DNA of 64,000 nucleotides from Thermoanaerobaculia bacterium (GTDB taxonomy: Bacteria; Acidobacteriota; Thermoanaerobaculia; Multivoradales; Multivoraceae). Positions 3,392-32,042 of the stretch are shown here, in pieces; position 1 is the stretch's first letter; each line of letters begins with the position of its first letter. Below the pieces are notes generated by a model. That model ran no database searches. It had not been told where the DNA came from and saw only the letters and a program-made list of their open reading frames with translations. The stretch spans positions 4,704,001 to 4,768,000 of the forward strand of contig OY762911.1 in assembly GCA_963666565.1 (NCBI GenBank). The letters run 5' to 3'. The position numbers and the translations under genes are program-made.

Positions 3392-4308
3392 TCGAACCGA
3401 GGCGGTGGACCCTCCCCGAGCTTGAACGAGACGCCGAAGAAGCCGAGTCGGTCTTCCGCGAAGAACGGCTCAGCGAGCCCCTGCATCGGTACACGGAGTT
3501 CTTCGAGCGCTTCGCGGCCGTCTTCCGGGAACTCGTCGACCGCCTGCCGGCGCTCGCGCACGCGGAGGACTCAGCGGACACGATCATCGAGATCTTCAGC
3601 GAAGAGGACGCGCGAACTGCTCTTCGCTACCTCGCCGCGCCCCCGGTGTCAGACGACGACCTGAAGACTCTCGCCGAGACCAGACTCTCCGCCGCCGCCC
3701 TCCGAAGCACACCTGAGAACGCCCGCCGCATCGCCGCTCTCGTCTTCCGCCTGATCGATCCCCACCGCTTTCCCTGGGTCACCGAGAGCCGCCTGCCTAC
3801 GAGCGACGAAGTCGAACGCGCCGTCGTCGCTTCCGCAGCCCTCGTTGCGACGCAGAAGGTCGCCACCTCCCGTCGAAGCGCCAGCAAGGTCCAGGAAGAC
3901 GCGGTCAAGGAGGTGCTCCGCTCCCGCGACTTCATCGAGGATCCTTCCCGGCCCGACATCGAGACCCTCGTCGATGCCCCGGCCCCGAACCACTTCCGGA
4001 GCGAAAGCAAGCTGGGCCGAACCAAGGCCGACATCGTGGCCCGTCTGGCCGATCAGCGGATTCTGGCAATCGAATGCAAGGTGTCCAACAGCGCCGTCAA
4101 CTCCTTCAAGCGCGTCAACCACGAGGCCGTCGGCAAGGCACGGTCCTGGCTGTCCGACTTCGGAACACGCCAGATCGTCCCGGCCGCCGTCCTCGGCGGT
4201 GTGTTCAAGCCCGAGAATCTGGCGACGGCTCAAGACGAGGGACTCGCGCTCTTCTGGGCCTTCCGCCTTGACGATCTGAGGGAGTTCCTCCAGCAGGTTT
4301 CAGCCTGA
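3388..4308 (+). CDS. XamI-family type II restriction endonuclease
   Basis: PD-(D/E)xK-type segment KADIVARLADQRILAIECKVSNSAVNSFKRVNHEA, recognised as typical of the RE_XamI family; translationally coupled to the MTase. Confidence 0.82.
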   Translation: MIEPRRWTLPELERDAEEAESVFREERLSEPLHRYTEFFERFAAVFRELVDRLPALAHAEDSADTIIEIFSEEDARTALRYLAAPPVSDDDLKTLAETRLSAAALRSTPENARRIAALVFRLIDPHRFPWVTESRLPTSDEVERAVVASAALVATQKVATSRRSASKVQEDAVKEVLRSRDFIEDPSRPDIETLVDAPAPNHFRSESKLGRTKADIVARLADQRILAIECKVSNSAVNSFKRVNHEAVGKARSWLSDFGTRQIVPAAVLGGVFKPENLATAQDEGLALFWAFRLDDLREFLQQVSA

Positions 4309-6460: not shown

Positions 6461-11245
<4,785 letters not shown>

Positions 11246-13763: not shown

Positions 13764-14684
13764 ATGCAAGGGCTCAGGATCTTCTGCGACGTCGCCGATC
13801 TGCGCAGCTTCAGCCGTGCCGCCGAGCTTCACGGCATCACGCAGTCCGCGGTCAGCCAGCGCATCCAGCACCTGGAGGAACTGTTCGGCACACGGCTGCT
13901 CGACCGCTCGAAGCGGCCCTTCGTGCTGACGCCGGCCGGCGAACTGGTCTCCAGCGAGGGGCGCGAACTCGTCGCCCGTTACGACGCGCTGGCGCGCAAC
14001 GTCGCCCGCCTCGACCCGGAGCGCGGCGGCACCGTGCGCGTCCACGCGATCTACTCCGCCGGCATCGCCCTGCTCAACCAGTTGCGGGCCGAGTTCCATC
14101 TCCGGCGTCCGGAAGTCGACGTGGAGATCGAGTACGAACCGCCGTCCGCGGTGGCCGAAGCAGCCCGGACCGGCCGCTGCGACTTCGGCATCGTCTCCTA
14201 CCCGGAGCAGTGGCCGGGCCTGCATTCGCGTCCGCTGCGCGAGGAGCGGATGTGCCTGGCCTGCGGCGTCGACCACGAACTGGCCGGCGCCGACCGGGTG
14301 CGCGCCACCGACCTCGACGGCCGCGAGTTGATCCACTTCACCCACGAACTCCCGGCGGCGCGGCACATTCGCAGCTACCTGGTCGCAAACGGCGCCAATG
14401 CGGTGTTCGCCCAGCGTCTCGACAACATCGACACGTTCAAGAACATGCTGCAGGCGACGGACTACGCGGCGATCCTGCCGCTGCGGACCTTCCTCGCCGA
14501 AGTGCGCGCCGGCCTGCTCGCCGCGGCGCCGCTCGAACCGGCGCTCGAGCGGCCGATGGGGATCGTCTTCGCCCGCCGCCGGCTGCGTCCGGCCGCCGAG
14601 GACTTCGCGGCCTTCCTGGTCGAAAACGCCGGGCCGATGCTCGCGGACGACGACCTGAGCGCCGAGCGCGGAGAAGCGGCATGA
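13764..14684 (+). CDS. LysR-family transcriptional regulator upstream of gltBD
   Basis: N-terminal SFSRAAELHGITQSAVSQRIQHLE HTH followed by a substrate-binding domain. Confidence 0.92.
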   Translation: MQGLRIFCDVADLRSFSRAAELHGITQSAVSQRIQHLEELFGTRLLDRSKRPFVLTPAGELVSSEGRELVARYDALARNVARLDPERGGTVRVHAIYSAGIALLNQLRAEFHLRRPEVDVEIEYEPPSAVAEAARTGRCDFGIVSYPEQWPGLHSRPLREERMCLACGVDHELAGADRVRATDLDGRELIHFTHELPAARHIRSYLVANGANAVFAQRLDNIDTFKNMLQATDYAAILPLRTFLAEVRAGLLAAAPLEPALERPMGIVFARRRLRPAAEDFAAFLVENAGPMLADDDLSAERGEAA

Positions 14685-14769
14685 CGATCCGTAACGACAC
14701 GCTCGCCGCCGCCTGCCTCCCGCTCGACACGCGGACGGAAGCCACCGACCGACGGCCGCTGGAGCCCGC

Positions 14770-19353
<4,584 letters not shown>

Positions 19354-19522: not shown

Positions 19523-21022
19523 ATGGGCAAGGACACCGGCTTCAAGGAGTACGCGCGCGCCGCGGTTCCCTACCAGGATCCGCTGATCCGCCTGAGTCAC
19601 TACGGCGAGTTCCTGGCGCCGGTGCCGGAACAGCACCTCGCCACCCAGGGCGCCCGCTGCATGGACTGCGGCGTCCCCTTCTGCCAGTCCGACGAAGGCT
19701 GCCCGATCGACAACCTGATCCCGGAGTGGAACGACCTCGTCTACCAGGGCCGCTGGAAGGAAGCGCTGCGGCGCCTGGAGAGGACGAACAACTTCCCCGA
19801 GTTCACCGGCCGCGTCTGCCCCGCCCCGTGCGAGGGCGCCTGCGTGCTGGGGATCACCGACCCGGCGGTGACGATCAAGAACATCGAGAACGCGATCGTC
19901 GACCGCGGCTTCGAGGAGGGCTGGATCGTTCCCCGCCCGCCCGTCAGGCGCACCGGCAAGAAGGTCGCGATCGTCGGTTCCGGGCCGGCGGGACTCGCCG
20001 CGGCGGCTCAGTTGAACGGCGTCGGCCACTCGGTCGCCGTCTTCGAACGCGAGGACCGCATCGGCGGCCTGCTGATGTACGGCATCCCGAACATGAAGCT
20101 CGACAAGCGCCTGGTCGTCGACCGGCGGATCGACCTGATGCGGGCCGAGGGCATCGAGTTCGTGACCGGCGCCCACGTCGGCGTGAACGTCGACGCCGCC
20201 GATCTGCGGCGCGACCACGACGCGATCCTGCTCGCCTGCGGCGCGACGAAGCCGCGCGATCTCCCCATCCCGGGCCGCGAGCTCGCGGGCGTCCATTTCG
20301 CGATGGACTTCCTGACCGAGCACACCCGTGCCCTTCTCGACGCCGATCTGCCGAGTGACGGCGCCCACCCTGTCCAGGCGCCGATTCACGCATCCGGAAA
20401 GAACGTCATCGTGATCGGCGGCGGCGACACCGGCGCCGACTGCATCGCGACCGCAGTGCGCCACGGCTGCGCCTCGCTGGTTAACTTCGAACTGCTGGAG
20501 CGGCCGCCGGACGACCGGGCCGCCGATAACCCGTGGCCGGAATGGCCCCGCATCTTCCGCGTCGAGTACGCGCACGCCGAAGCCGCGGCCCGGTTCGGCG
20601 CCGACCCGCGCGTGTTCTCCGTTCTCTCCAAGCGCTTCGTCGACGACGGCGCCGGCGGCGTCGCCGGTATCGAGACCGTCCGCGTCGCCTGGAAACGGGA
20701 CGCCGGCGGCCGCTTCGCGATGGAGGAAGTGCCCGGAACCGAAGAGACCTTCGAGGCCGAACTCGTGCTCCTGGCAATGGGCTTCCTCGGCCCCGAAGCG
20801 ACTCTCGGCGAGCGCTTGGGCCTCGCCACGGACGAGCGCAGCAACTTCGCGGCAGAACCCGGCCGGTACGCGACCTCGGTCGAGGGGGTCTTCGCCGCCG
20901 GCGACTGCCGCCGCGGACAGAGCCTGATCGTGTGGGCGATCGCCGAGGGCCGCGGCGCCGCGGCCCGGATCGACGAGTACCTGACCGGGGCCACCGAACT
21001 GCCGCTGCCGTCGGCGCTCTGA
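19523..21022 (+). CDS. gltD: Glutamate synthase small subunit
   Basis: [34 protein letters not shown] and [12 protein letters not shown] 19523 (MGKDTGF) is preferred over the GTG at 19469, which abuts the REP. Confidence 0.97.
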
Positions 21023-21039
21023 CCACCCTCCGTTCTGGT

Positions 21040-21640
21040 CGAACAGATCGAACACCTCGATGCGGCATCCCACCGCGCGAACCCGACAGGTGTGCTCTTG
21101 ACTCCTCGGAGGAGGACATCAGGGACTACTCCACCGGCGAGCTTCCAAGGGCGATGTTCAACTGAGATGGGCTGCACCAAGAGGTGCCCTCACTCCATCT
21201 CTGCACCCCCGCCTTCGCGGCCGTCGACAAGGCCTTGGCCGCTCGGCGCCCCAACGCGCCGCTTGAAGCCGCGCCCTACCACACGCCCCATCACGACGGA
21301 ACCTGATCCCAACTCAGAGTCCAGAAGCCGAGCGACCGCCGAGCTACTCGCCGCCCACAACCAGTCGATCACCAGCGCATCGAACAACGCACCGAAACGA
21401 GAGTCTCCCTCCGACCAGGGTGCGCTGATCGTGAGAACCCCCGTGCTCCGCGCACCGCACGCGGAGCACGTCCGCGGCCAAGATGGTCCGGTACGCTGCC
21501 GGATACGGGGGTCCCGATCTCGGCATCGCAGGTACCTCCTCCTACGAGGAGGAAGTGCCTGCGGAACCGGGGCAAGCTCAACTCGTCCCCCTTCGATTCG
21601 GAAGGCCCCAGTGGTCTTCCGCCTTTCCCCCGGCATGCGA
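21040..21640 (-). pseudogene. Degraded ISL3-family transposase remnant
   Basis: Frameshifted fragments YRTILAADVLRVRCAEHG and APWSEGDSRFGALFDALVIDWL..SSSAVARLL match the ISL3 zinc-finger/HTH region. Boundaries approximate. Confidence 0.72.
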
Positions 21641-21645
21641 CAAGG

Positions 21646-22257
21646 TCAATGAACGTCTTCGGAGAGCCAGTACCCGAACGCTTTCTCCAGATTCTCTCTG
21701 GCAGAGCTAACCGCTTGGCGCACATACTCGGCTTCAGAATCGGCACGAATCCGACTCAGCTCTCGCCGAACCGTAGTCAGGATCCGAGTAGCATTGCGCA
21801 TATCGGGATGCCGTGCATACGGGCGAAGGGCACGACGATGTTCCAGAAGTGCGCGGAGACTCCAATCTCGCAGTTCTGGGTGGCTGTACATGGGCTCTGT
21901 CGTTCTCGTGTCTGAGACACCATCCAAGATGCGAAAGACGATCGTCGCTTTGTAGTTCTCTGCAGCCATCCAGTCTGGATCATGCCAAGAGTCGAGTCTA
22001 CTAAGGGCGTTCTCCACTCGCGTCGGAACCTCGACGTCGATCAGGCGCACCATGCGATCCTCTTCCTTCGCTTCGGCGAATTCTCCTTGGAAAAACGAAA
22101 AGAGAATCGGCAGGGAGACAACGGCTAGAGAAGGCAGTAGAGCCACAAAGAAAGGCTCGTTCAGGAAACGCCATAGGCCTCGGCGCTGTCCCTTCATTGG
22201 GCCAGGCTCACAAGTGGCCTGTATCTTCGATTCGTCGGCTGACGCGCTACTCTTCAC
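21646..22257 (-). CDS. Hypothetical protein with one N-terminal TM segment, lower GC
   Basis: 203-aa ORF with hydrophobic FFVALLPSLAVVSLPILFSFF; co-oriented downstream of the truncated receptor cassette. Confidence 0.55.
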   Translation of the reverse strand: MKSSASADESKIQATCEPGPMKGQRRGLWRFLNEPFFVALLPSLAVVSLPILFSFFQGEFAEAKEEDRMVRLIDVEVPTRVENALSRLDSWHDPDWMAAENYKATIVFRILDGVSDTRTTEPMYSHPELRDWSLRALLEHRRALRPYARHPDMRNATRILTTVRRELSRIRADSEAEYVRQAVSSARENLEKAFGYWLSEDVH

Positions 22258-22328
22258 CCAAAGCGTCTCCCTGGTGTCAGCGGTTCCGAGAGAGTAGGGG
22301 GCCTCTGGCTGGGGGCGCTCAACCTAGC

Positions 22329-24734
22329 CTAGAAGCTGAACCGAGCGCCAATCTGTAACTGACGCCAGGACGTGACTCGGCCGGACGGTATGCCGAGGTC
22401 TTCGGGAACTACGCCGCCCTCCACGTTTCGCTGGCTGAAGCCGACCGCGAAGCTGTGTTCGTCGAATAGGTTAAAGGCCTCGACGAACACGTCCAGGCGC
22501 ATTTCATCGCCGAACCGGAAGAACCTGCCGACGCGGACATCGACCGTCTGGAGCGACTCGTTCCTGAAGGTGTTTCGTCCTACGACGGAACCATCGATGA
22601 TGGCTCGGTAGTCGGGGCAGTTGAAGATGGGCCACCCGCAGCCGATACTGTCGAAGCCTCGGACGGGTGTGTCGCGGTCGTTCACATCAACGGCCGTGTA
22701 CGGCGTTCCCGACTGGTAGTTCAGGATGCCGGAGATCTGGAAGTCGGCCGGCAACTGGACCATGCCCGTAACTACGAGCCGGTGCTTCACGTCACGATCC
22801 GAGAGGCCCCAGTCGTAGTCCAGGTTGCCGGTGTCGGAGATCGTGACGCCGGTCGCCGAACGCTCGTTCGAGTCGGTGTCGCGATCCTCGCCCCAGGTGT
22901 AGTGGGCGCCGAACTGGTAGCGACCGGTGAAGCGCTTGTTCGCCTTGAGCGTGACCGCCTGATACTCGGACTCGCCCCGAGACTGGCGAACGAGGACTTC
23001 GGCGCACCGGATTTCGTCGAGACCCGGGCACACGTCATTGCGGCCGGCCCACATCGGGCGGCCGTACGGGTCGTAGCCGCCGAAGACCCGGTTGAAGTCC
23101 GTGTTGCGCTGCAGGCTGGTCGCTTCGGCATACACGGCATCGACGCCGGCGCTCCAGCCGCCGCCGAGTTCCCGCTCCCAGCCGACGCTGGCGCGCAGCG
23201 TTTGGGCGTCGTCGAACTCGGGATCCACGTACGAGATGGCGGGAATGATGCCCGGCGGCGGGTTCTCGTTGTCGATCTGCGTCCCGAGCGGCACGTAGCC
23301 GTTCTGGCCGGGACGAACCGTGATGCGACCGTAGTTCGGCGGTACGCCGTTGGCCTGAACCTGGTTGGCGAACAGCAGGGTGGGCGTGCGGCCGAAGAAG
23401 AAGCCGATGCCGCCGCGGAGGACCGACCGGCCCTCGTCCTGGGACCTGGCGAAGCCGAAGCGGGGCGCCAGGTTCTCGGTGTCCGGGATCTGGCGGCCGT
23501 CCGGGTGCAGGTGATCCAGGCCGTCCGGGTTGTCCGTGGACGTATAGCGGAGGCCGTAACTGATTGTCACGTTGTCCCGCTTGAGACTGTCCTGCCCGTA
23601 GAAGGCGAGGGCCTCCTGAGTCTCGTCGTAGTTCGGGTACGTCGAATCGCCGAACCAGATTCGCGCCCGGAAAGCCTCGTTGCTCAAGAAGTCCTCCGGC
23701 GAGCCGAAGTCATAGCGGCCGTCGCGGCTGCCGGCGAAGAGCTGCGCCAGATCGTCCTTCGAGTAGTCGACGCCGAACTTCATGTCATGGGCACCGAACA
23801 GGTAGGAGAAGTCGTTCTTGACCTGGAGCTGCTCTTCCTCAACGAAGATCGGGAGGAAGTCGAACTTGCCAACGCTGTCAAACTCGTCGAAGAAGAAGCG
23901 GACCTGCGCCTCGATTGGCGTGCCGACCCGCTTGGACAGGCGATCCAGATTGTCCGTCGCGGACTGAATCCGGAACTCGTTGACGCCACGGCTGCCGACG
24001 ACCGAGGTCATCGATGCGATGATGGACAGCGTGTCCTCCGTCTTCAGCGACTCCTCGTCCAGGTAGTCGCTCTCCCGCTCGAAGTCCGTCACATTGGCGC
24101 GCAGGGTGATGAGGTTCGAGTCGTTGATCTGGTGGTCCAGCTTGCCGAAGAGGATCTGGTTGCTCACCGAGCGCAGGAACAAGCCGGTGGCGGAACCGTC
24201 GGCGTTTCGCTCGAAGCCGTCGACCAGAGCCGCGAATCCGGGCTCTGTCTCCGCCCTCTTCATGATCAGGTCGTAGGTGCTGTTGACGCCGGTCGAGCGC
24301 AGCGAGCGGGAGAACGGGATGTCCTGGTCGCGGAGGTCGACGCCGAAGTAGTAGTGGGTGCGATCCTGCTTGAACGGACCACCGACCGAGAAGCCGTAGT
24401 TCTGGGTGTCGAACTCGTCCACCGGTCGCGAGCCGTCACGGCCCCGGAAGTCGTCGAGAGGCGACGAAGGAATGTCCTCGGCCATGCTGTCGTCGCGGAA
24501 CTGGTAGAAGGCCGAGCCCCTCATCTCGTTCGTGCCGGACTTCGTGACCACGTTGACGAAGGCGCCGCCGTGCCGGCCGTACTCGGCCGAGAAGCCGTTG
24601 GTGATGACCTGGAACTGGCGAACCGTGTCCTGGGCGATGATCAGGCCGTCGTTCTCGGTCGCCTCGCCGCCCCGGCCATAGCCGAAGAAGGTGCTCTTGT
24701 TGTCCGCGCCGTCAACGGAAAGGCCGCTGTACAT
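22329..24734 (-). other. Silent, 5'-truncated TonB-dependent receptor cassette (801 codons, uninterrupted)
   Basis: Paralogue of 27067-29445 with the first 59 aa identical. It lacks the signal peptide and N-terminal domain, has an in-frame TGA (24740-24738) two codons before the ATG, and ends in the OMP-type GARFSF. Confidence 0.88.
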
Positions 24735-24737
24735 GCC
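24721..24737 (-). repeat. Candidate recombination core GGCATGTACAGCGGCCT, inverted copy 1
   Basis: Identical to 27064-27080 in inverted orientation; marks the 5' limit of continuous homology. Confidence 0.6.
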
Positions 24738-24955
24738 TCACTGGTCGGGCTTCAGTTCCATGAAGGTCCGAAGAGCAGGAGAGAGTCCGGGAACAACCGA
24801 GAACTCCTGTAGACACCGTCACTTGTGAAGGTCTCGTTACGTTGCCCAAGGCCGCGGATGCGGTTGACGGCAAACGGCAAATCGCCGACGGGATTGGGGG
24901 AAGTGGGGGACACGGTGAGGGAGTGCCATACGGCCGTCCTTGCTATGTTCGAGCG

Positions 24956-26092
24956 ATGCCCCTTACCCAACGGAGAGTCGACGCCGTCAGACCCACCGGC
25001 CGGCCCTTCAAGCTGTACGACCGCGACGGCCTGATGCTCAGGGTCACCGCCGCCGGCAAGAGCCGATGGGTCTGGAGAGGCGTCGTCAAGGGAAAGCGGA
25101 TCGAGGTCGGCATGGGCTCGACACGTTTCCGCTCGCTGAAGGAGGCAAGGGAGGTCGCCTTCGAGAATACGAGAACGGCGAGACTGGGAGGCGATCCCAG
25201 AGCGGCCGTGTCCTCTGACGTTCCGACCTTCAGGGAAGCCGCGACGCTCTATCTGGAGATCCAGTCCACCGATTGGGGAGAGGCCCACTCCCGCCAAGTC
25301 AGACGGATGCTGGAGCGCCATGCGTTCCCGGGCTTCGGGGACCTTCCGGTAGACGAGATCCAGACCGCCGACGTGATGCGGGTTCTGGTACCGCTGTGGC
25401 GGCGTCAGAGGCCGACCGGACAGCGGCTCAGGCAGAGGATCGCCGGCGTCATGGCGTGGAGCGTAGCGGCGGGCTACCGGGCCGACGATCCGACGAGCAC
25501 TCTCTCGGCGGTCTTGCCCGCCGGCCGGACGCGGCGGAAGCACCATCGCTACCTGCCCGCCGTCAAGCTGCGCGAAGCACTGGTCAAGGTGCAGGACTCC
25601 GGAGCATGGATCGGAACGCGGTTGGCCATGCGCTTCCTGGCGCTGACGGCGGCGCGCTCCGGCGAGGTGCGTGGAGCGAGGTGGCGGGAGATCGATCTGG
25701 AGTCGGTCACGTGGACCGTTCCCGCCTCGCGGATGAAGGCGCGCCGTGAGCACCGGGTCCCCCTCTCCAGCGCGGCCCTTGCGGTCCTTGAGCGGGCCGG
25801 CGGACTTCGGGGTCGGGGCAGAGGGCTCGTCTTTCCCGGCGTCCAGGGGAAGATGGTCGGTGTGTCGGTGTTCGGTCGGCTGCTGAGAGACCTCGATATC
25901 GATTGCAGCCCGCACGGGTTCCGCAGTGCGTTTCGGTCGTGCTGCTCCGACGAGGGGATCGACCGGGAGTTGGCGGAACAGGCCCTGGCACACGCGGTCG
26001 GGAGCCAGGTCGAGCAGTGCTATGCGCGAAGCGACGTGCTGGAGCGCCGCCGAGACGTCATGGAGGCTTGGGGTGCGTTCCTGGTCCAGTAG
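24956..26092 (+). CDS. P4-type tyrosine recombinase/integrase
   Basis: N-terminal arm-binding domain (KLYDRDGLMLRV...IEVGMG...SLKEARE). Catalytic R (TAARSGE), K (RMKARREH), HGFR, LAH and Y (QCYARS) are all present. Confidence 0.93.
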   Translation: MPLTQRRVDAVRPTGRPFKLYDRDGLMLRVTAAGKSRWVWRGVVKGKRIEVGMGSTRFRSLKEAREVAFENTRTARLGGDPRAAVSSDVPTFREAATLYLEIQSTDWGEAHSRQVRRMLERHAFPGFGDLPVDEIQTADVMRVLVPLWRRQRPTGQRLRQRIAGVMAWSVAAGYRADDPTSTLSAVLPAGRTRRKHHRYLPAVKLREALVKVQDSGAWIGTRLAMRFLALTAARSGEVRGARWREIDLESVTWTVPASRMKARREHRVPLSSAALAVLERAGGLRGRGRGLVFPGVQGKMVGVSVFGRLLRDLDIDCSPHGFRSAFRSCCSDEGIDRELAEQALAHAVGSQVEQCYARSDVLERRRDVMEAWGAFLVQ

Positions 26093-26334
26093 CGGACGGA
26101 CCGGACATGCAGGGCCGTGGTCCAGGCTCGCGCCGCAGCTTCGCCGCGGCGCGGGGGGCTTTCCCAGGGGCAATCCAGTCCCCTGGGCGGAGCCACGGAG
26201 CTGGCCCTGCCGTTGGCTCATAGACAGCCGGATCGAGCGCCTCCGCGAAGGCTTCAACGCCCCGGCGGAGACTCTCCGCGTGAAGTCCGCGAACCGTGCC
26301 GTCGATTCAATATCTTGAAGCGAGCCGCCCTCCG

Positions 26335-26364
26335 TTGACGGGGGGCGAAGCGATTCTCTATAGT
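26335..26364 (+). promoter_or_regulatory. Sigma70-type promoter of the TonB-dependent receptor
   Basis: TTGACG (26335-26340), 18 bp, TATAGT (26359-26364); GAGGAG RBS before ATG 26512. Confidence 0.6.
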
Positions 26365-26511
26365 CGTACCCGGTCTGTGGCCTTGCGCGCGAGCGCCCCA
26401 CCACCGCCACCCACTCGGACAATCGAGAGACCTTCCACGCGTGAAGCGCACGCCGGTGAATTCGTGCCGAATTCGACGGCGCCTACTCAGACACAGAGGA
26501 GAAACCCCACC

Positions 26512-29445
26512 ATGCAGTCGACCCGCCTCCGGGCACGTCTTCTTGCGACCCTCCTGGCAACGGCCTGCGTCCTCCTGATCGGCGGCGCCGGCTTCGCCCA
26601 GACGATCACCGGCACCGTCCAGGGCTACATCTCGGATGTCGAGGGCGGCCCGATTCCCGGCGTCACGGTGACCGTCACCAACCAGGACACCGGCATCGCC
26701 CGCGCCGCCATCGCGGACGCCAACGGCTTCTACAGCGCCAAGGCGCTCCAGGTCGGCACCTACTCGGTGACCGCCGAACTCGCCGGCATGCAGACCACGC
26801 AGCAGAGCGACGTCTCCGTCCTGGTCGGCCAGATCAAGGACGTCAACCTGACCCTCGAGGTCGAGTCGACCTCCGAGGTGATCACCGTCACGTCCGAGGC
26901 CCCGATCATCGAGGTCAGTCGTTCGGGCGCCGCCAACTACATCGACGAGGTCGCCATCGAGAGCCTGCCGATCGTCGGCCGCGACTTCACCGACTTCGCG
27001 ATTCTCACTCCCGGCGTCCAGCGCGACCGTTCCCGCGGCTTCCTGACCATGGCCGGTCAGCGCGGCATGTACAGCGGCCTGTCGGTCGACGGCGCGGACA
27101 ACAAGAGCACCTTCTTCGGTTACGGCCGCGGCGGCGAGGCCACCGAGAACGACGGCCTGATCATCGCCCAGGACACGGTGCGCCAGTTCCAGGTCATCAC
27201 GAACGGCTTCTCGGCCGAGTACGGCCGGCACGGCGGCGCCTTCATCAACGTCGTCACGAAGTCCGGCACGAACGAGCTCAGGGGTTCGGCCTTCTACCAG
27301 TTCCGGGACGACAGCATGGCCGAGGATCTGCCGTCCTCGCCGCTCGACGACTTCAACGACCGCGACGGCTCGCGTCCGGTGGACACGTTCGACACCCAGA
27401 ACTACGGCGTCTCGATCGGCGGGCCGTTCAAGCGCGACCGTACCCACTACTATTTCGGAATCGACCAGCGCGACCAGGACATCCCGTTCACCCGGTTCCT
27501 GACCAACCGCGGCGGCAGCGTCTATGACCTGGTCATGCAGCGAGCGCAGAGCGAGCCCGCCTTCGCCGCCCTGGTGGACGGCTTCGAGCGAAACTCCGAC
27601 GGCTCCGCCACCGGCCTGTTCACGCGCTCGGTGAGCAACCAGATCCTGTTCGGCAAGCTGGACCACCAGATCAGCGACGCGAACCTGATCACCCTGCGAG
27701 CCAACTGGACGGACTTCGAACGGGAGAGCAGCTTCCTCGACGAGGAGTCGCTCAAGACGGAGGACACGCTGTCGATCATCGCGTCGATGACCTCGGTCGT
27801 CGGCAGCCGCGGCGTGAACGAGTTCCGAATTCAGACGGCCGACGACAACCTGGATCGCCTGTCCTTGCGGGTCGGCACGCCGATCGAGGCGCAGGTCCGC
27901 TTCCGCTGGAACGGCGCGAGCGTCGGCAAGTACGACTTCCTGCCGATCTTCGTGGAGGAGTCGCAGCTCCAGGTCAAGAACGACTTCTCCTACCTGTTCG
28001 GCGCCCACGACATGAAGTTCGGCGTCGACTACTCGAAGGACGACCTGGCCCAGCTCTTCGCCGGCAGCCGCGACGGCCGCTACGACTTCCGCTCGCCGGA
28101 GGACTTCCTGTCCAACAACTCAAGCGCCGCCCGGATCTGGTTCGGCGATTCGACCTATCCGAACTACGACGAGACCCAGGCGGCTCTCGCCTTCTACGGC
28201 CAGGACAGCCAGAAGCGCGACAACATGACGATCAGCTACGGCCTCCGCTACACGTCCACGGACAACCCGGACGGTCTCGATCATCTGCATCCGGACGGCC
28301 GCCAGATCCCGGACACCGAGAACCTGGCGCCCCGCTTCGGCTTCGCCATGGCCCAGGACGAGGGCCGGTCGGTTCTCCGCGGCGGCATCGGCTTCTTCTT
28401 CGGGCGCACGCCCACCCTGCTGTTCGCCAACCAGGTTCAGGCCAACGGCGTGCCGCCGAACTACGGCCGCATCACCGTCACTCCCGGCGAGAACGGCTAC
28501 GTGCCGCTCGGAACGCCGATCGACAATGAGAACCCGCCGCCGGGCATCATCCCCGCGATCTCCTACGTCGACCCCGAGTTCGACGACGCCCAGACGCTGC
28601 GCGCCAGCATCGGCTGGGAGCGGGAGCTCGGCGACGGCTGGAGCGCCGGAGTCGACGCCGTGTACGCGGAGGGCACGAGCCTGCAGCGCAACACGGACTT
28701 CAACCGCGTCTTCGGCGGCTACGACGAGTACGGTCGCCCGATGTGGAACGGCCGCAACGAAGGAACCTGCCCCGGAGTCCCGGGCGCCGAATGCGCCGAG
28801 ATCCTGGTTCGGCAGTCCCGCGGCGAGTCCGAGTACCAGGCGGTCACGCTGAAGGCGAACAGGCGCTTCACCGGCCGCTACCAGATGAGCGCCCACTACA
28901 CCTGGGGCAAGGATCGCGACACCGACTCGAACGAGCGTTCGGCGACCGGCGTCACGATCTCGGACACCGGCAACCTCGACTACGACTGGGGTCTCTCGGA
29001 CCGCGACGTCAAGCACCGTCTGGTGGTCACCGGCATGATCCAGTTGCCGCTCGACTTCCAGATCTCGGGCATCGTGAACTACCAGTCGGGTACCCCGTAC
29101 ACGCTGGTCGACAACGGCGTCGACTGGGCTTACTGTCGCACGGTCGGCTGGAACTGCCCGGACTACCGTGCGGTGATGGACGGCGTCGTCGTCGGCCGGA
29201 ACACGGAGCGGAACGAGTCGATCCAGACGATCGACGTTCGCCTCGGCAAGTTCTTCACCTTCGGCGACGGCATGCGGCTCGACGTCTTCGTCGAGGCGTT
29301 CAACCTGTTCGACGAGAACAGCTTCGGCGTCGGCTTCAACCAGCGCAACATCCGCAACGGCAACGTTCCCGACGACTTCGGGGTCCCGTCGTACCTGACG
29401 ACGCGCCCGCGCCAGTTGCAGATCGGAGGCCGGTTCAGCTTCTAG
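26512..29445 (+). CDS. TonB-dependent outer-membrane receptor, Oar-like, with carboxypeptidase-regulatory N-domain (977 aa)
   Basis: Signal peptide ending GFA-QT; GGPIPGVTVTV N-domain; plug motifs VDGADN and SAEYGRHGG..NVVTKSGTN; terminal GGRFSF. Confidence 0.93.
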   Translation: MQSTRLRARLLATLLATACVLLIGGAGFAQTITGTVQGYISDVEGGPIPGVTVTVTNQDTGIARAAIADANGFYSAKALQVGTYSVTAELAGMQTTQQSDVSVLVGQIKDVNLTLEVESTSEVITVTSEAPIIEVSRSGAANYIDEVAIESLPIVGRDFTDFAILTPGVQRDRSRGFLTMAGQRGMYSGLSVDGADNKSTFFGYGRGGEATENDGLIIAQDTVRQFQVITNGFSAEYGRHGGAFINVVTKSGTNELRGSAFYQFRDDSMAEDLPSSPLDDFNDRDGSRPVDTFDTQNYGVSIGGPFKRDRTHYYFGIDQRDQDIPFTRFLTNRGGSVYDLVMQRAQSEPAFAALVDGFERNSDGSATGLFTRSVSNQILFGKLDHQISDANLITLRANWTDFERESSFLDEESLKTEDTLSIIASMTSVVGSRGVNEFRIQTADDNLDRLSLRVGTPIEAQVRFRWNGASVGKYDFLPIFVEESQLQVKNDFSYLFGAHDMKFGVDYSKDDLAQLFAGSRDGRYDFRSPEDFLSNNSSAARIWFGDSTYPNYDETQAALAFYGQDSQKRDNMTISYGLRYTSTDNPDGLDHLHPDGRQIPDTENLAPRFGFAMAQDEGRSVLRGGIGFFFGRTPTLLFANQVQANGVPPNYGRITVTPGENGYVPLGTPIDNENPPPGIIPAISYVDPEFDDAQTLRASIGWERELGDGWSAGVDAVYAEGTSLQRNTDFNRVFGGYDEYGRPMWNGRNEGTCPGVPGAECAEILVRQSRGESEYQAVTLKANRRFTGRYQMSAHYTWGKDRDTDSNERSATGVTISDTGNLDYDWGLSDRDVKHRLVVTGMIQLPLDFQISGIVNYQSGTPYTLVDNGVDWAYCRTVGWNCPDYRAVMDGVVVGRNTERNESIQTIDVRLGKFFTFGDGMRLDVFVEAFNLFDENSFGVGFNQRNIRNGNVPDDFGVPSYLTTRPRQLQIGGRFSF
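27064..27080 (+). repeat. Candidate recombination core GGCATGTACAGCGGCCT, copy 2, inside the plug-coding region
   Basis: Exact 17-bp inverted match to 24721-24737. Confidence 0.6.
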
Positions 29446-29499
29446 GCTGAGCGGTGCCAGAGCAGCCGCGGCGCCCGAGGCCGCGGCAAAGAGAAATCG

Positions 29500-29532
29500 A
29501 GGGCCTCCCCAGCAACGGGGAGGCCCTTCTTC
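29500..29532 (+). terminator. Intrinsic terminator hairpin
   Basis: AGGGCCTCCCC-AGCAAC-GGGGAGGCCCT followed by TCTT, between convergent genes. Confidence 0.75.
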
Positions 29533-29553
29533 GTCAACGATCGCGGAGCGGCT

Positions 29554-30522
29554 TCAGAGCCGGAGAAGTCGAAGGAGTTCCGCTTCGTCGGCACACATCT
29601 GCGCCGCCTTGGCGATCTCGACCTCGGACAAGCCGCGGAGGCCGGCCAGGCGTTCGGCAAGGTCCGGGCTCGTCGGTACGCCGCGCGCATCGAGCACGGC
29701 GACCGCCATCCGGGCACGCCCTGCGGCGAGGCCCTCGTCACGGCCCTCGTCGCGCTCAGCTCGCAGCCACGGATCGTCGTCCGGGCCGGTACCCTCGAGC
29801 GCGCCCATAGCGCGGCCCACGCGACGGAGAACCTCCAGGGTCTCCGGCGACGGCAGGTCGCGGCTCAGGGCAACGTGGATCTCTTCGGCGGTCCAGCCCG
29901 GAAAGGCCCGGCTGGAGGCCGCTTCCCGGAAGCGCTCGCCGTGGTGAAGGTGAATCGTCAGACCGGACAGCAACGACCTCGGATACGAGCGTTCGTCCGG
30001 CACGTCGATCCAGACCTCCGGGAAGCCCCAAGCCTCGTACAGCGGCAGCTTCCACAACCGCGCGTCGGTCGAGTAGTCGACTTCCAGCACGACGTCCGGC
30101 AGTTCGCCGCCGTCAATGTCCACCCGCGCCCCGGCCGGCAACGCGGCCGGATCCAGGTAGAGGATCTGGTCGGCCTGCATCAGCACCCTGTACCCGCCGT
30201 CAGCCTTGGCGCGCACCAGATCCGCCGTCCCCAACGTCTCGATCGGCGCGCCTCTCGACGCCGCGATGCGCTCGGCCAACCTGGCCAACCGCTGCGAGGG
30301 GCGCTCGTGATAGACGGTCGTCGGTTCGCGCAGGACCATGGCCCGCTCCGTGCGTTCCTCCCAGTACTCCACGCGGCCCTCGTAGTCGTCGATCCGCTCC
30401 TTCGGGATCCGAACCGTCCGGCAACCGGACTCGGCGGCCAGGGCCAGCGGCGATGCAACCGGCTCGGGACGTCCCGCTTCCGGCGGCCGCGGGTTCGGGG
30501 TTCGGACGGGCGGTTCAGCCAT
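29554..30522 (-). CDS. Uma2-family (PD-(D/E)xK) putative endonuclease
   Basis: HERPSQRL, MQADQ, LPDVVLEVD and LYEAWGFPEVW; C-terminal AERDEGRDEG repeat-like tail. Start taken at ATG 30522. Confidence 0.78.
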   Translation of the reverse strand: MAEPPVRTPNPRPPEAGRPEPVASPLALAAESGCRTVRIPKERIDDYEGRVEYWEERTERAMVLREPTTVYHERPSQRLARLAERIAASRGAPIETLGTADLVRAKADGGYRVLMQADQILYLDPAALPAGARVDIDGGELPDVVLEVDYSTDARLWKLPLYEAWGFPEVWIDVPDERSYPRSLLSGLTIHLHHGERFREAASSRAFPGWTAEEIHVALSRDLPSPETLEVLRRVGRAMGALEGTGPDDDPWLRAERDEGRDEGLAAGRARMAVAVLDARGVPTSPDLAERLAGLRGLSEVEIAKAAQMCADEAELLRLLRL

Positions 30523-30544
30523 GGCCCGAGCGTACACCGGCGCT

Positions 30545-30690
30545 CGGGCCTTCGGCAGCGAGAACCCGGACTGCGGAACGTCGCGGTCGAGAAAGGTCTC
30601 CACGAAACTCTGGCGCCACAGGGCGGACAGGTCGCCGTCCTCGGCCAGAAAGCTGCGAGGGAACCCGCCCCGCAACCAGAGCTTCCGCCA
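30545..30690 (-). pseudogene. Short internal fragment of an AAA+/DUF4143 ATPase
   Basis: KLWLRGGFPRSFLA..SALWRQSFVETFLDRDVPQ.G matches the region after the AAA domain in this family; no Walker motifs are present. Confidence 0.6.
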
Positions 30691-30767
30691 TCCGCCTGGA
30701 GTTGCTTGAAAATCGCTCGGTCAAGAGACGATTTTCCCGAAACTTCCGGTGCGGACCGCGTCTCAGG

Positions 30768-32042
30768 CTACCCGGCCACCCAGGGAATCGTCTGCGGACC
30801 TTCGGGCAGCACGCAGATGCGCGCGTCGGGCCGCGCCGCCACGCACTCGGCGAGCGCGTCGTCGAGGTCGGGCGCCGGCTCGAAGTGCGCGGCGGCAAGC
30901 TGCTCCCCGCTCAGGCCGTCCGCCTTGACCAGCACCCGGGCGCGGCGCTGGATCAGCGCCTGAACCTGGACCTGCCACTGATCTGGCTCGGTCGTCGGAC
31001 GAGCCTCGATCTGCTGGAGCAATTCCTCGGGCGAGCCGCCGCGGCCGAGCAGTTCGGCGTAGCGGCCGTGGTCCGGAATGCCGTCGCTGCACTCGGCCGC
31101 GCAGAGGATGGTTCCGCCGTCGGCGACCACCTGCGCGGCCGCCGACATCCCCTTGACCGCCTGGTAGAGGTTCTGGTCGAGCGGGTAGCCGGAGTTCGTC
31201 GTCACGACGACGTCGAACCGGTGGCCGGTCTCCCGCATGGCAATCGGCTTCGCGGTCGCGCAGGCCCGCCGGTGCATCTCGAAGAGTTCGCCAGCGAAGA
31301 CGTACGTGATCCTCTGCTGCCGGTCGAGCAGCACGTCGACGCTGAAGTGCGGCTTCGCCTCCGGCCGCGCCGCGATCGCCCGGATGTCGCCGTGCAGCGG
31401 GTTGTCGTCGATGATCCCCCAGGTCGACCGCGGATCGCCCACGCGGGCGGCGTCGTGCAGGGTGAGCACCGTGTCGAGCCCGGCGAGCCCCGGCGCCACC
31501 ATCTTCGGGCCGCCCGAGAAGCCCGCGAAGAAGTGCGGCTCGACGAAGCCGGTCGTGATCCGGAGGTCGGCCTCCAGCCAGTGGCGGCAGAGCCGGGTCG
31601 GGACGCCGGCGCCGGTCTCTCCCAGGTCGACGAGCGAGGCGTCGTCGCGGGCGTCGTGGTTGACCACGCGGCAGGCGCCGAGGATCTCGTCGCCCAGCAT
31701 CGCCCGGAGTTCGGCCCGCGTGTTGGCCCGATGAGTGCCGGTGGCGATCAGGATGGTGACGTCCTCCGGGCGAACGATGCCGTCGAGTTCCCGCAGAACC
31801 GCGGCGACCATCTCCCGCCGCGGCTGCGCCCGGGTGATGTCGCACACCGAGATCGCGACGGTCTGTCCCGGCTTCGCCAACTCGCGGAGGGGCGGTCCGG
31901 CGACCGGTCGCCGCAGCGCCGCTGTCAGAGCCGCGGCCGGTTCGTCCAGTGCGGGCGCCTGGATCGGCTCGATCACGGTCGTCCGCTCGCGCGGCACGTT
32001 GATCGTCAGGCCGCTGCGGCCGTAGGCCAGGCGCACACGCAT
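30768..32042 (-). CDS. Nickel-dependent lactate racemase (LarA) family protein
   Basis: DITR, IATGTHR, VVNHD, EPHFFAGFSGGPK and DQNLYQAVKG motifs. Confidence 0.9.
   Translation of the reverse strand: MRVRLAYGRSGLTINVPRERTTVIEPIQAPALDEPAAALTAALRRPVAGPPLRELAKPGQTVAISVCDITRAQPRREMVAAVLRELDGIVRPEDVTILIATGTHRANTRAELRAMLGDEILGACRVVNHDARDDASLVDLGETGAGVPTRLCRHWLEADLRITTGFVEPHFFAGFSGGPKMVAPGLAGLDTVLTLHDAARVGDPRSTWGIIDDNPLHGDIRAIAARPEAKPHFSVDVLLDRQQRITYVFAGELFEMHRRACATAKPIAMRETGHRFDVVVTTNSGYPLDQNLYQAVKGMSAAAQVVADGGTILCAAECSDGIPDHGRYAELLGRGGSPEELLQQIEARPTTEPDQWQVQVQALIQRRARVLVKADGLSGEQLAAAHFEPAPDLDDALAECVAARPDARICVLPEGPQTIPWVAG

What the first reader, a model, noticed from the sequence alone, without database searches (positions are those of the whole stretch)
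22329..29445. Candidate invertible TonB-receptor switch driven by a P4-type integrase
Seen: a complete receptor gene (26512-29445, +) and an inverted copy of only its 3' part (24734-22329, -; 801 uninterrupted codons, no signal peptide, in-frame stop just upstream). The ~2.3 kb between them (about 24738-27063) holds an intact tyrosine integrase, the receptor promoter and the 185 N-terminal codons. Inverting that segment at the shared core would fuse promoter and N-terminus in frame to the alternative cassette, giving a 986-aa receptor instead of 977 aa and silencing the current one. Established: tyrosine-recombinase SusC shufflons exist in Bacteroides, and TonB receptors are common phage receptors. 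Inference: this is a two-state phase-variation switch run by an arm-domain P4-type integrase repurposed as an invertase and carried on its own invertible segment. I do not know of such a system in an Acidobacteriota-like genome.
Basis: partly seen in the sequence, partly recalled or inferred. Interest (0 to 1): 0.92.

Follow-up and report, generated by a model that had tools for sequence, protein, structure and literature searches.

The report
Candidate invertible TonB-receptor cassette switch
An Acidobacteriota-like genome keeps a silent, inverted spare copy of most of an outer-membrane receptor gene beside a mobile-element integrase, and the spare evolves like a working gene, so it is probably swapped into use by DNA inversion, although no flipped molecule has been seen.

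Summary
A complete 977-aa TonB-dependent receptor gene (A) faces an inverted, promoterless copy of codons 185-977 (B, 802 codons, no stop). Between them lie an intact P4-type integrase, the receptor promoter and 184 N-terminal codons.

New context:
- B plus integrase are part of a 5.3-kb insertion at the 3' end of a gltD-like gene. It is flanked by an 8-bp direct repeat and was found in 2 of 42 genomes of the genus (G000, G050).
- The integrase belongs to a multi-copy mobile-element family. None of 15 other copies examined sits next to a receptor.
- In G050, B is broken by a phage-like insertion and a stop codon.

Against an inert relic:
- B in G000 versus G050 has dN/dS 0.13 (CI 0.09-0.20), the same as the active gene (0.14). 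The integrase gives 0.15.
- B is not a recent local duplicate. It is a divergent allele whose changes lie mostly in predicted surface loops.

No flipped form was found, but the only read data were k=31 contigs, which cannot see the likeliest crossover.

Verdict: a plausible two-cassette receptor switch, mechanism unproven. It is a new variant of the Bacteroides SusC-type shufflons.

The parts
21014..26304 (.). 5.3-kb insertion relative to relatives: region X, cassette B, integrase and its flanks
   Evidence: In G006, G004, G014 and G051, window ~21012 is joined directly to ~26294. The junction sequences were read. G050 has an insertion at the same site.
21006..21013 (.). Left copy of the 8-bp direct repeat TGCCGTCG, inside the last codons of the gltD-like gene
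   Evidence: The empty site in relatives reads ...CTGCCGTCCGATTCAAC...
26297..26304 (.). Right copy of the 8-bp direct repeat TGCCGTCG
21023..22328 (.). Region X, the left part of the insertion. G+C is 61%, no recognised domain, and it is not shared with G050
   Evidence: Pfam and PHROGs found nothing for 5 of 5 ORFs. G+C. G050 has an ISL3 transposase at this position instead.
22329..24737 (-). Cassette B: promoterless copy of receptor codons 185-977 (802 codons plus stop), with no signal peptide
   Evidence: dN/dS against the G050 copy is 0.13.
24738..24740 (-). In-frame TGA immediately upstream of the shared sequence of cassette B
24738..24955 (+). Integrase 5' flank. It is weakly homologous to the 5' flank of the other family members up to within a few bases of the cassette boundary
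   Evidence: MAFFT alignment of 12 upstream regions; G000 against G050
24956..26092 (+). P4-type tyrosine integrase, 378 aa, intact
   Evidence: Pfam Arm-DNA-bind_3, Phage_int_M and Phage_integrase. PHROG 1 integrase. CP4-like integrase N-terminal and central fragments in the PDB. dN/dS 0.145 against G050.
26198..26223 (+). Short stretch that resembles the 3' end of the gltD-like gene (a second att-like remnant?), absent from G050
   Evidence: read by eye, no statistic
26335..26364 (+). Sigma-70-like promoter of the receptor (TTGACG-18-TATAGT), conserved in relatives
   Evidence: 1 site found in 9 kb; shuffles give a mean of 0.8, so a consensus match only
26512..27063 (+). The 184 N-terminal codons unique to the expressed gene: signal peptide, CarboxypepD_reg domain and the first part of the plug
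27064..29445 (+). Cassette A: codons 185-977 of the expressed receptor (rest of the plug and the 22-strand barrel)
27088..27119 (.). First exact A/B identity run of 31 nt or more (32 nt; its partner is 24682-24713). A crossover here would be invisible to k=31 contigs

Best explanation
Cassette B is a maintained, silent alternative body for a core TonB-dependent receptor gene.

Proposed mechanism:
- The 2.3-kb segment 24738-27063 carries the integrase, the only promoter, the signal peptide, the CarboxypepD_reg domain and the first part of the plug.
- That segment inverts by recombination within the first part of the 2.4-kb inverted repeat.
- The same N-terminus is then fused in frame either to A (977 aa) or to B (986 aa), and the other cassette falls silent.
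- The two products differ mainly in predicted extracellular loops. The largest difference is an 8-residue insertion in loop 10.
- The recombination is most likely catalysed by the resident P4-type integrase. Its own 5' flank abuts the repeat boundary to the nucleotide.

Origin: the module (B plus integrase) is not ancestral to the host. It sits in a 5.3-kb insertion at the 3' end of the gltD-like gene, and it appears to have spread between species of the genus.

Shown: the anatomy, the insertion, selection on B and on the integrase, and the loop bias of the differences.

Inferred: that inversion happens, that the integrase does it, and what the switch is for (escape from phage or other agents that dock on the receptor, or a change of substrate).
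For: (1) The geometry is exact and in frame.

(2) B is under purifying selection.
- B in G000 against B in G050: 40.2 non-synonymous and 95.8 synonymous differences over 803 codons, dN/dS 0.115.
- On 787 codons shared by all four cassettes, dN/dS is 0.134, bootstrap 95% CI 0.085-0.197. The expressed gene gives 0.142 (0.097-0.196).
- A binomial test against the neutral expectation gives P = 5e-31.
- Both B copies are cut at the same base and joined to the same integrase flank, so their common ancestor was already truncated.

(3) Over its whole branch B has dN/dS 0.16-0.26, using each of 28 outgroups.

(4) The integrase is intact in both genomes (378 aa). Its dS of 0.18 matches B's 0.20, and its dN/dS is 0.145 (CI 0.08-0.24).

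(5) B has no start context, signal peptide or promoter-like site of its own. Selection can therefore act on it only through fusion to the shared N-terminus.

(6) A/B amino-acid differences lie at 82 of 366 predicted loop positions against 39 of 437 elsewhere (odds ratio 2.9, P = 1e-7). Only 2 of 72 plug positions differ. Of 37 residues private to B, 29 are in loops and 15 of those in loop 10. The model has pLDDT 80.3 and pTM 0.78 and a TonB-transporter fold.

(7) The module is less diverged between G000 and G050 (dS 0.18-0.20) than five flanking genes or gene parts (dS 0.24-0.41). The relatives nearest to G050 on the receptor tree lack it.

(8) A proven precedent of the same logic exists. In B. 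thetaiotaomicron, tyrosine recombinase BT1041 moves the 5' end of BT1042 onto 5'-truncated TonB-dependent transporter genes (passages read in bioRxiv 10.1101/521070).
Against: (1) No flipped molecule or genome was seen.
- G050 has the same orientation.
- In four runs (one study, at most three samples) one exact contig spans roughly 24684 to 26842-27117 in the reference orientation. No strand-changing joint is among the listed joints, though 6 joints were not shown.
- None of the 120 best of 1860 database proteins is a B-type full-length receptor; the best identity to B is 87%.

(2) The module was found in only 2 of 42 genus genomes. It was not seen in the rest of 300 genomes of the order, where only 2 candidates per genome were scored.

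(3) In G050, B is broken by an 8.2-kb insertion (terminase, ISL3 transposase, a second integrase) and an internal TAG. The cassette is therefore dispensable.

(4) The integrase is a mobile-element integrase. Copies 87-90% identical occur several times per genome in six relatives and in five metagenome loci, and 0 of 15 loci have a receptor beside them. Its conservation could simply serve the element.

(5) No convincing core site was found. An imperfect dyad at the boundary is no better than chance by my own rough estimate. There is also no clear identity between the boundary and the corresponding point of the other elements' flanks.

(6) I know of no arm-type P4-like integrase that acts as an invertase (recalled; not searched specifically).
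Confidence: 0.45

Rival explanations
1. B is a functional silent cassette, but the exchange is done by general (RecA-type) homologous recombination or gene conversion between the 2.4-kb inverted repeats. This would be rare and could occur at any of the longer identity runs. The integrase would be only the integration enzyme of the mobile element that brought B in.
For: - The repeats hold 13 exact runs of 25 nt or more (58, 52, 47, 42 ... 32 nt).
- Within-genome shared sites slightly exceed the control pattern: ABAB 11 against ABBA 3, with 169 AABB.
- The integrase family is otherwise linked to mobile elements, not receptors.
- No core site was recognised.
Against: - At about 12-15% divergence homologous recombination is strongly suppressed (general knowledge).
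- Yet B is constrained as tightly as the expressed gene, which argues for frequent expression.
- The repeat ends exactly at the integrase's own flank and at a stop codon.
- The 11 ABAB sites are scattered and form no tracts.
Confidence: 0.2
2. Inert relic. A mobile element picked up or truncated a receptor gene from another species, then inserted beside the host's own receptor. B is a dead fragment that has not yet decayed in G000.
For: - It is an insertion with an 8-bp direct repeat, found in 2 of 42 genomes.
- B is broken in G050.
- B lies outside the clade of A on the tree and is about equally distant (84-88% aa) from all 40 genus orthologues.
- GC3 is lower in B than in A, 0.88 against 0.94.
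- No flipped form was seen.
Against: - dN/dS between the two truncated copies is 0.13, not about 1 (P = 5e-31).
- The 802 codons carry no stop or frameshift, although the two copies differ by dS 0.20.
- I judged the non-coding integrase flank to diverge at about that same rate, from identities of 80-90% per 100 nt, so dS looks like a fair neutral yardstick.
Confidence: 0.25
3. Assembly artefact: a collapsed or misjoined repeat in a metagenome-derived genome.
For: Long inverted repeats beside mobile genes are classic places for misassembly.
Against: - The same architecture is present in an independent genome (G050), with the junctions conserved to the base.
- Exact contigs from four runs span both inner junctions.
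- The arms are 12-15% diverged, so they are not collapsible repeats.
Confidence: 0.02

Closest known systems
Bacteroides thetaiotaomicron BT1032-BT1053 PUL shufflon: tyrosine recombinase BT1041, full-length BT1042, 5'-truncated BT1040 and BT1046 (Porter et al.; bioRxiv 10.1101/521070, passages read)
   Same: A tyrosine recombinase gene sits among TonB-dependent transporter genes. Only one of them has the full 5' end and promoter, and the others are 5'-truncated. Recombination inside the 5' part of the coding sequence moves the expressed 5' end onto another gene body. The proposed benefit is alternative surface receptors under phage pressure.
   Different: - There the system is proven by PCR, amplicon sequencing and a recombinase mutant, with a 7-bp crossover site. 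Here nothing is proven.
- Three cassettes with their operons there; two cassettes and no SusD partner here.
- The phylum is Bacteroidota there and Acidobacteriota-like here.
- Here the recombinase has an arm-binding domain and belongs to a mobile-element integrase family, and the module is an insertion found in 2 of 42 genomes.
- I did not compare the two recombinases.
Bacteroides fragilis SusC/SusD shufflon-type inversions by Tsr0667 (as summarised in the introduction of PMC4747536, passages read; the primary paper was not read)
   Same: Tyrosine-recombinase inversions that vary which SusC/SusD-family outer-membrane protein is expressed.
   Different: A master invertase acts on many distant regions through short repeats. 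Here there is one local pair of 2.4-kb repeats.
Intragenic invertons (bioRxiv 10.1101/2023.03.11.532203, 'Intragenic DNA inversions expand bacterial coding capacity'; seen only in the search listing)
   Same: An inversion with an end point inside a coding sequence changes the protein that is made.
   Different: Known only from the title and the start of the abstract, so no detailed comparison was made.
P4/CP4-type integrases of genomic islands
   Same: Domain architecture of Arm-DNA-bind_3, Phage_int_M and Phage_integrase. There is a match to CP4-like integrase fragments in the PDB. The gene lies at the end of an inserted segment flanked by a short direct repeat at the 3' end of a gene.
   Different: There is no tRNA gene in the window or in 14 related loci. 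The island is only 5.3 kb with no recognisable cargo other than the receptor cassette. No excisionase was recognised.

Membership tests
TonB-dependent outer-membrane transporter (receptor A and cassette B) | Plug domain followed by a 22-strand beta-barrel | tested here: met
   - Pfam OMP_b-brl_4: E 3.6e-68 for A and 2.9e-66 for B.
- AlphaFold model pLDDT 80.3, with 22 long strands by my count of the DSSP string.
- Foldseek top hits are YddB, FusA, PirA and BtuB, E down to 2e-32, target-normalised TM 0.66-0.79.
TonB-dependent outer-membrane transporter (receptor A and cassette B) | TonB box and signal peptide at the N-terminus | tested here: inconclusive
   A has a signal-peptide-like start that matches 28 orthologues. 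The TonB box was not looked for. B has neither feature.
Recombinase-driven invertible switch (shufflon or inverton) | Inverted repeats that bound a segment carrying a promoter or a 5' gene part | tested here: met
Recombinase-driven invertible switch (shufflon or inverton) | A site-specific recombinase gene in or beside the segment | tested here: met
   An intact tyrosine integrase lies inside the segment
Recombinase-driven invertible switch (shufflon or inverton) | Both orientations present in a population or among strains | tested here: inconclusive
   - Only the reference orientation was seen in G050 and in the contigs of 4 runs.
- k=31 contigs cannot register a crossover inside the 32-nt identical run 27088-27119, and contigs drop rare variants.
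- No raw reads were available.
Recombinase-driven invertible switch (shufflon or inverton) | A short conserved crossover site with recombinase-binding half-sites | tested here: inconclusive
   No convincing site was found. The boundary dyad is not better than chance by my estimate, and there is no shared core with the other elements of the integrase family.
Recombinase-driven invertible switch (shufflon or inverton) | The silent alternative is kept functional | tested here: met
   dN/dS 0.13 between the two truncated copies, equal to that of the expressed gene
P4-type (arm-domain) tyrosine integrase | Arm-binding N-terminal domain, central SAM-like domain and catalytic domain | tested here: met
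   PF13356 (E 1.4e-12), PF22022 (E 7.7e-23) and PF00589 (E 8.2e-16), all above their curated cut-offs
P4-type (arm-domain) tyrosine integrase | Catalytic R..HxxR..Y residues | tested here: inconclusive
   The translations read ...AARSGEV......HGFRS......EQCYARS... in both G000 and G050. Assigning these to the catalytic residues is from memory. No full-length solved relative aligned over the catalytic domain.
Integrated mobile element or genomic island | Present or absent at a fixed site among relatives, with flanking direct repeats and an integrase at one end | tested here: met
   The site is empty in 4 of 4 syntenic relatives fetched. There is an 8-bp repeat, and G050 has an insertion at the same site.
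Integrated mobile element or genomic island | Insertion next to a tRNA gene (usual for P4-type integrases) | tested here: not met
   0 tRNA genes in the window and 0 in 14 related loci

The most novel reading that the evidence does not exclude
This is a horizontally mobile 'receptor-swap module'. A small integrase element carries a promoterless alternative body for a core host receptor gene. It inserts next to that gene and, using its own arm-type integrase as an invertase, gives the host (or itself) a reversible change of the exposed loops of the receptor.

Such a module would be a phase-variation system that spreads between species, rather than evolving in place. It could serve as superinfection exclusion for the element or as phage escape for the host.
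Probability: 0.2. Interest if true: 0.8.

Novelty: new variant of a known kind. Interest (0 to 1): 0.6.

Why it matters
Programmed swapping of TonB-dependent transporter bodies by a tyrosine recombinase has, to my knowledge, been shown only in gut Bacteroides. The one search that included 'Acidobacteria' returned no listed paper containing that word.

If the switch is real, it would matter in three ways:
- It would extend this strategy to Acidobacteriota.
- It would show an arm-type P4-like integrase working as an invertase.
- It would be a surface-variation module that arrived on a mobile element and moved between species.

It also gives a clear, cheap test case: one locus, two cassettes and one enzyme. 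If it is not real, it is still an unusual case of a truncated gene fragment under strong purifying selection, and that would need another explanation.

Tried and rejected
- **Flipped junctions in public reads.** Four runs hold the locus, but only as k=31 contigs. No strand-changing joint and no B-type letters at 27081, 27084 or 27087 were listed. The contigs stop inside the 32-nt identical run, so a crossover there or in any longer identity run cannot be seen. I count this as no test. Twenty other runs held shares of 0.05-0.16.
- **Metagenome scan for the B|integrase junction.** A 31-nt pattern gave 0 matches.
- **Metagenome scan with the integrase protein.** It gave 5 loci, and none has a receptor beside the integrase.
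- **The same design around other copies of the integrase.** I looked for a truncated inverted gene copy in 6 loci from relatives. No inverted repeat longer than 69 nt was found, so the design is not a property of the integrase family.
- **Other local inverted repeats in the genome.** There are 8 pairs of 300 nt or more lying within 20 kb of each other. The two long ones I examined are full-length paralogue pairs (ABC transporters; AcrB-type pumps) with no recombinase between them. The four remaining pairs were not examined.
- **Other truncated cassettes in the protein database.**
  - P0058 (786 aa, on a 2529-nt contig) starts at exactly the same MYSGLSVDG. However, it clusters with a normal 971-aa protein and may simply be cut by the contig end.
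  - P0060 (792 aa, on a 17-kb contig) starts six residues earlier.
  - P0124, the second member of B's cluster, is an ordinary 978-aa orthologue without B's loop-10 insertion.
- **Homogenised tract at the inner end of the repeat.** The first ~260 nt have few fixed A/B differences. The same stretch is conserved in all 29 orthologues, and its synonymous divergence (0.32) is ordinary. I make no claim from it.
- **Core-site hunt.** An imperfect dyad is centred on the homology boundary with 7 of 11 matches. By my rough estimate this is expected by chance once spacer and position are left free. There is also no clear overlap identity with the other elements' flanks.
- **G057.** Its receptor match starts at residue 193 because of a 263-nt frameshifting deletion, not because it is a cassette.
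- **Order-wide search.** Of 300 genomes, 73 have a match. Only two others (G131, G150) have two copies, and both copies are full length. Only 2 candidates per genome were scored.
- **Supplements** of the Bacteroides papers, which hold the crossover-site figures, could not be seen.
Full report
**What is there.** The window carries a 2.4-kb inverted repeat with arms 22326-24748 and 27053-29448. It appears as five collinear blocks at 75-90% complementarity, or 85.4% identity over 2430 nt by megablast.
- The right arm is the 3' four-fifths of a complete gene (26512-29445, 977 aa). This gene has a signal-peptide-like start, a CarboxypepD_reg domain and an OMP_b-brl_4 barrel.
- An AlphaFold model built on 81 sequences (pLDDT 80.3, pTM 0.78) matches solved TonB-dependent transporters: YddB, FusA, PirA and BtuB, with E down to 2e-32.
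- The left arm, cassette B, is the same part on the other strand. It is open for 802 codons and starts at the shared GGC ATG TAC, with a TGA in frame directly upstream.
- Between the arms lie an intact integrase (24956-26092; Arm-DNA-bind_3, Phage_int_M and Phage_integrase domains), a sigma-70-like site at 26335-26364, and the 184 codons unique to the expressed gene.
- Inverting 24738-27063 would therefore make a 986-aa in-frame fusion to B.
- The genome is one contig of 4.79 Mb. It holds no other close copy of the receptor; the next best matches are 31-36% identical. It holds a single copy of this integrase.

**Where it came from.** The receptor is a single-copy core gene. 41 of 42 genomes of the genus have it at E <= 1e-100, always as one full-length copy.
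- A second, partial, inverted copy exists only in this genome and in G050. The other partial hits lie at contig ends, and in G057 the partial hit reflects a 263-nt deletion.
- In four syntenic relatives (G006, G004, G014, G051) the end of a gltD-like gene is joined directly to the receptor promoter. That gene carries Fer4_20 and Pyr_redox_2 domains.
- Window 21014-26304 is thus an insertion. It holds a 1.3-kb region with no recognisable gene, then B, then the integrase. It is bounded by the 8-bp repeat TGCCGTCG.
- G050 has an insertion at the same site. Its B and integrase are 92.7-93.5% identical in DNA to those here, but its left part differs and holds an ISL3 transposase.

**B is not a recent local duplicate.**
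- On a tree of 27 rows it sits on a long stem outside the well-supported clade that contains A.
- It is 84-88% identical in protein to all 40 genus orthologues, and 86% to A.
- Its synonymous distance to every orthologue (0.46-0.69) exceeds that of A (0.30-0.53).

**The integrase comes from a mobile-element family.**
- Copies 87-90% identical occur, often several per genome and with fragments, in six relatives and in five metagenome loci.
- In 0 of these 15 loci is a receptor nearby.
- Those copies share about 330 nt upstream and up to 1.3 kb downstream with one another.
- The copy here shares clear similarity only over 24900-26101. Weak similarity of its 5' flank runs up to within a few bases of the B boundary.

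- I compared B here with B in G050. Both are cut at the same base and fused to the same flank, so their common ancestor was already truncated.
- There are 40.2 non-synonymous and 95.8 synonymous differences, giving dN/dS 0.115.
- On the 787 codons present in all four cassettes, dN/dS is 0.134 (bootstrap CI 0.085-0.197). The expressed gene gives 0.142 (0.097-0.196) over the same species pair.
- Under neutrality about three quarters of changes should be non-synonymous. The binomial probability of the observed split is 5e-31.
- The integrase 5' flank, which is non-coding, shows 80-90% identity per 100 nt between the two genomes. I judged that roughly equal to B's synonymous rate.
- The integrase itself is intact in both genomes, with dS 0.18 and dN/dS 0.145.
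- B has no promoter-like site, usable start context or signal peptide of its own. Such constraint is therefore hard to explain unless B is regularly expressed as a fusion to the shared N-terminus.
- In G050 the cassette has since been hit by an 8.2-kb phage-like insertion (terminase, ISL3 transposase, a second integrase) and by one internal TAG. The cassette can evidently be lost.

**What differs between the two products.** I read the strand pattern of the model as 22 strands, with short periplasmic turns alternating with long loops. This assignment comes from the DSSP string, not from coordinates.
- A and B differ at 82 of 366 loop positions against 39 of 437 elsewhere (P = 1e-7).
- Only 2 of 72 positions differ in the swapped part of the plug.
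- Of 37 residues found in B and in no orthologue, 29 are in loops. Fifteen of those are in loop 10, which carries an 8-residue insertion.
- The share of differences in loops (0.68) equals that of the more distant orthologues (0.57-0.69). B therefore looks like a normal, working, foreign allele with a distinctive loop 10.

**Did it flip?** No evidence either way.
- G050 has the same orientation.
- Four public runs (one study) hold the locus, but only as k=31 contigs. One exact contig runs from 24684 to between 26842 and 27117 in each run. It stops within or before the first 32-nt run of A/B identity.
- A crossover in that run, or in any longer identity run, creates no new 31-mer, so these data cannot detect it.
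- A crossover in the first 17 nt of the repeat would have shown, and it did not appear among the listed differences.
- No B-type full-length protein is among the 120 best hits in the 5.8-billion-protein collection. A junction pattern found nothing in JGI metagenomes.

**Spread.**
- B and the integrase differ between G000 and G050 by dS 0.18-0.20. The flanking genes differ by 0.24-0.41: gltD-like 0.41, receptor N-terminus 0.24, receptor body 0.32, and two downstream genes 0.33 and 0.40.
- On the receptor tree, G050 groups with G006 and G014, which lack the module.
- This pattern fits later transfer of the module between species better than vertical descent with several losses. The dS estimates are noisy, however.

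**Reading.** Three explanations remain.
- *Integrase-driven two-cassette switch (0.45).* This is the Bacteroides SusC-shufflon logic, realised by a module that a mobile element brought in. In B. thetaiotaomicron, BT1041 moves the 5' end of BT1042 onto truncated BT1040 and BT1046. In B. fragilis, Tsr0667 does the equivalent, as summarised in PMC4747536.
- *Same function, but by rare homologous recombination (0.2).*
- *Inert relic (0.25).* This would require the strong constraint on B to have another cause.
- A misassembly is very unlikely (0.02), because G050 and the contigs of four runs confirm the junctions.

I file the locus as a new variant of a known kind. It is unproven, and raw long reads or a simple PCR would settle it.

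Noticed in passing
L031:10532-10715 with 14683-14868 and 16579-16618; L033:176-475 with 6789-7088; L035:3353-3401 with 3761-3809; L078:8582-8754: In relatives, the last 50-300 nt of this integrase gene are repeated in direct orientation 0.4-6.6 kb downstream of the full gene. This looks as if cassettes or elements insert at an attachment site that overlaps the integrase's own 3' end. The family also shares a conserved 5' flank with a repeated GGAGCGAGCG motif that the window's copy lacks.
   Followed up: partly
L070:5169-13420 (G050): Cassette B of G050 is split by an 8.2-kb insert that carries a terminase large subunit, an ISL3 transposase and a second tyrosine integrase next to the junction. 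About 9 nt are duplicated at the insertion point (window equivalent 23098-23106).
   Followed up: partly
window 29529-30775: A 1.2-kb segment just downstream of the receptor is absent from G006, G004, G014 and G051. It is present as two diverged copies (70-72%) in G050. Its 373-aa ORF on the minus strand has only a weak Uma2 (putative restriction endonuclease) match, below Pfam's cut-off.
   Followed up: partly
window 26198-26223: A 26-nt stretch inside the right end of the insertion resembles the 3' end of the gltD-like gene of relatives. It may be a second, older attachment-site remnant. It is absent from G050.
   Followed up: no
L084 (G057:C239), receptor gene: The receptor of G057 has a 263-nt frameshifting deletion (window equivalent 26831-27093) that ends 30 nt inside the start of the repeat. 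P0056 from another assembly has an in-frame deletion of about 96 residues in the N-terminal domain. Either could be a real variant or an assembly error.
   Followed up: partly
G000:C1:4228126-4248757 (outside the window): The genome's self-comparison shows a ~20-kb array of tandem repeats with a period of about 333 nt at 84-89% identity. It also shows several IS-like repeats of 1.3-1.9 kb, present in about 4-7 near-identical copies.
   Followed up: no
L081:6794-7864 (G000:C1:139793-140863): A 356-aa WD40 beta-propeller protein lies between two convergent ABC-transporter paralogues that form a 2-kb inverted repeat of 82% identity. No recombinase lies between them.
   Followed up: partly
protein P0058 (JGI contig of 2529 nt): A called protein from another metagenome begins at exactly the residue where cassette B begins (MYSGLSVDG), yet it is only 85.5% identical to B. 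It could be a contig-end effect or another cassette. Its context could not be fetched.
   Followed up: partly
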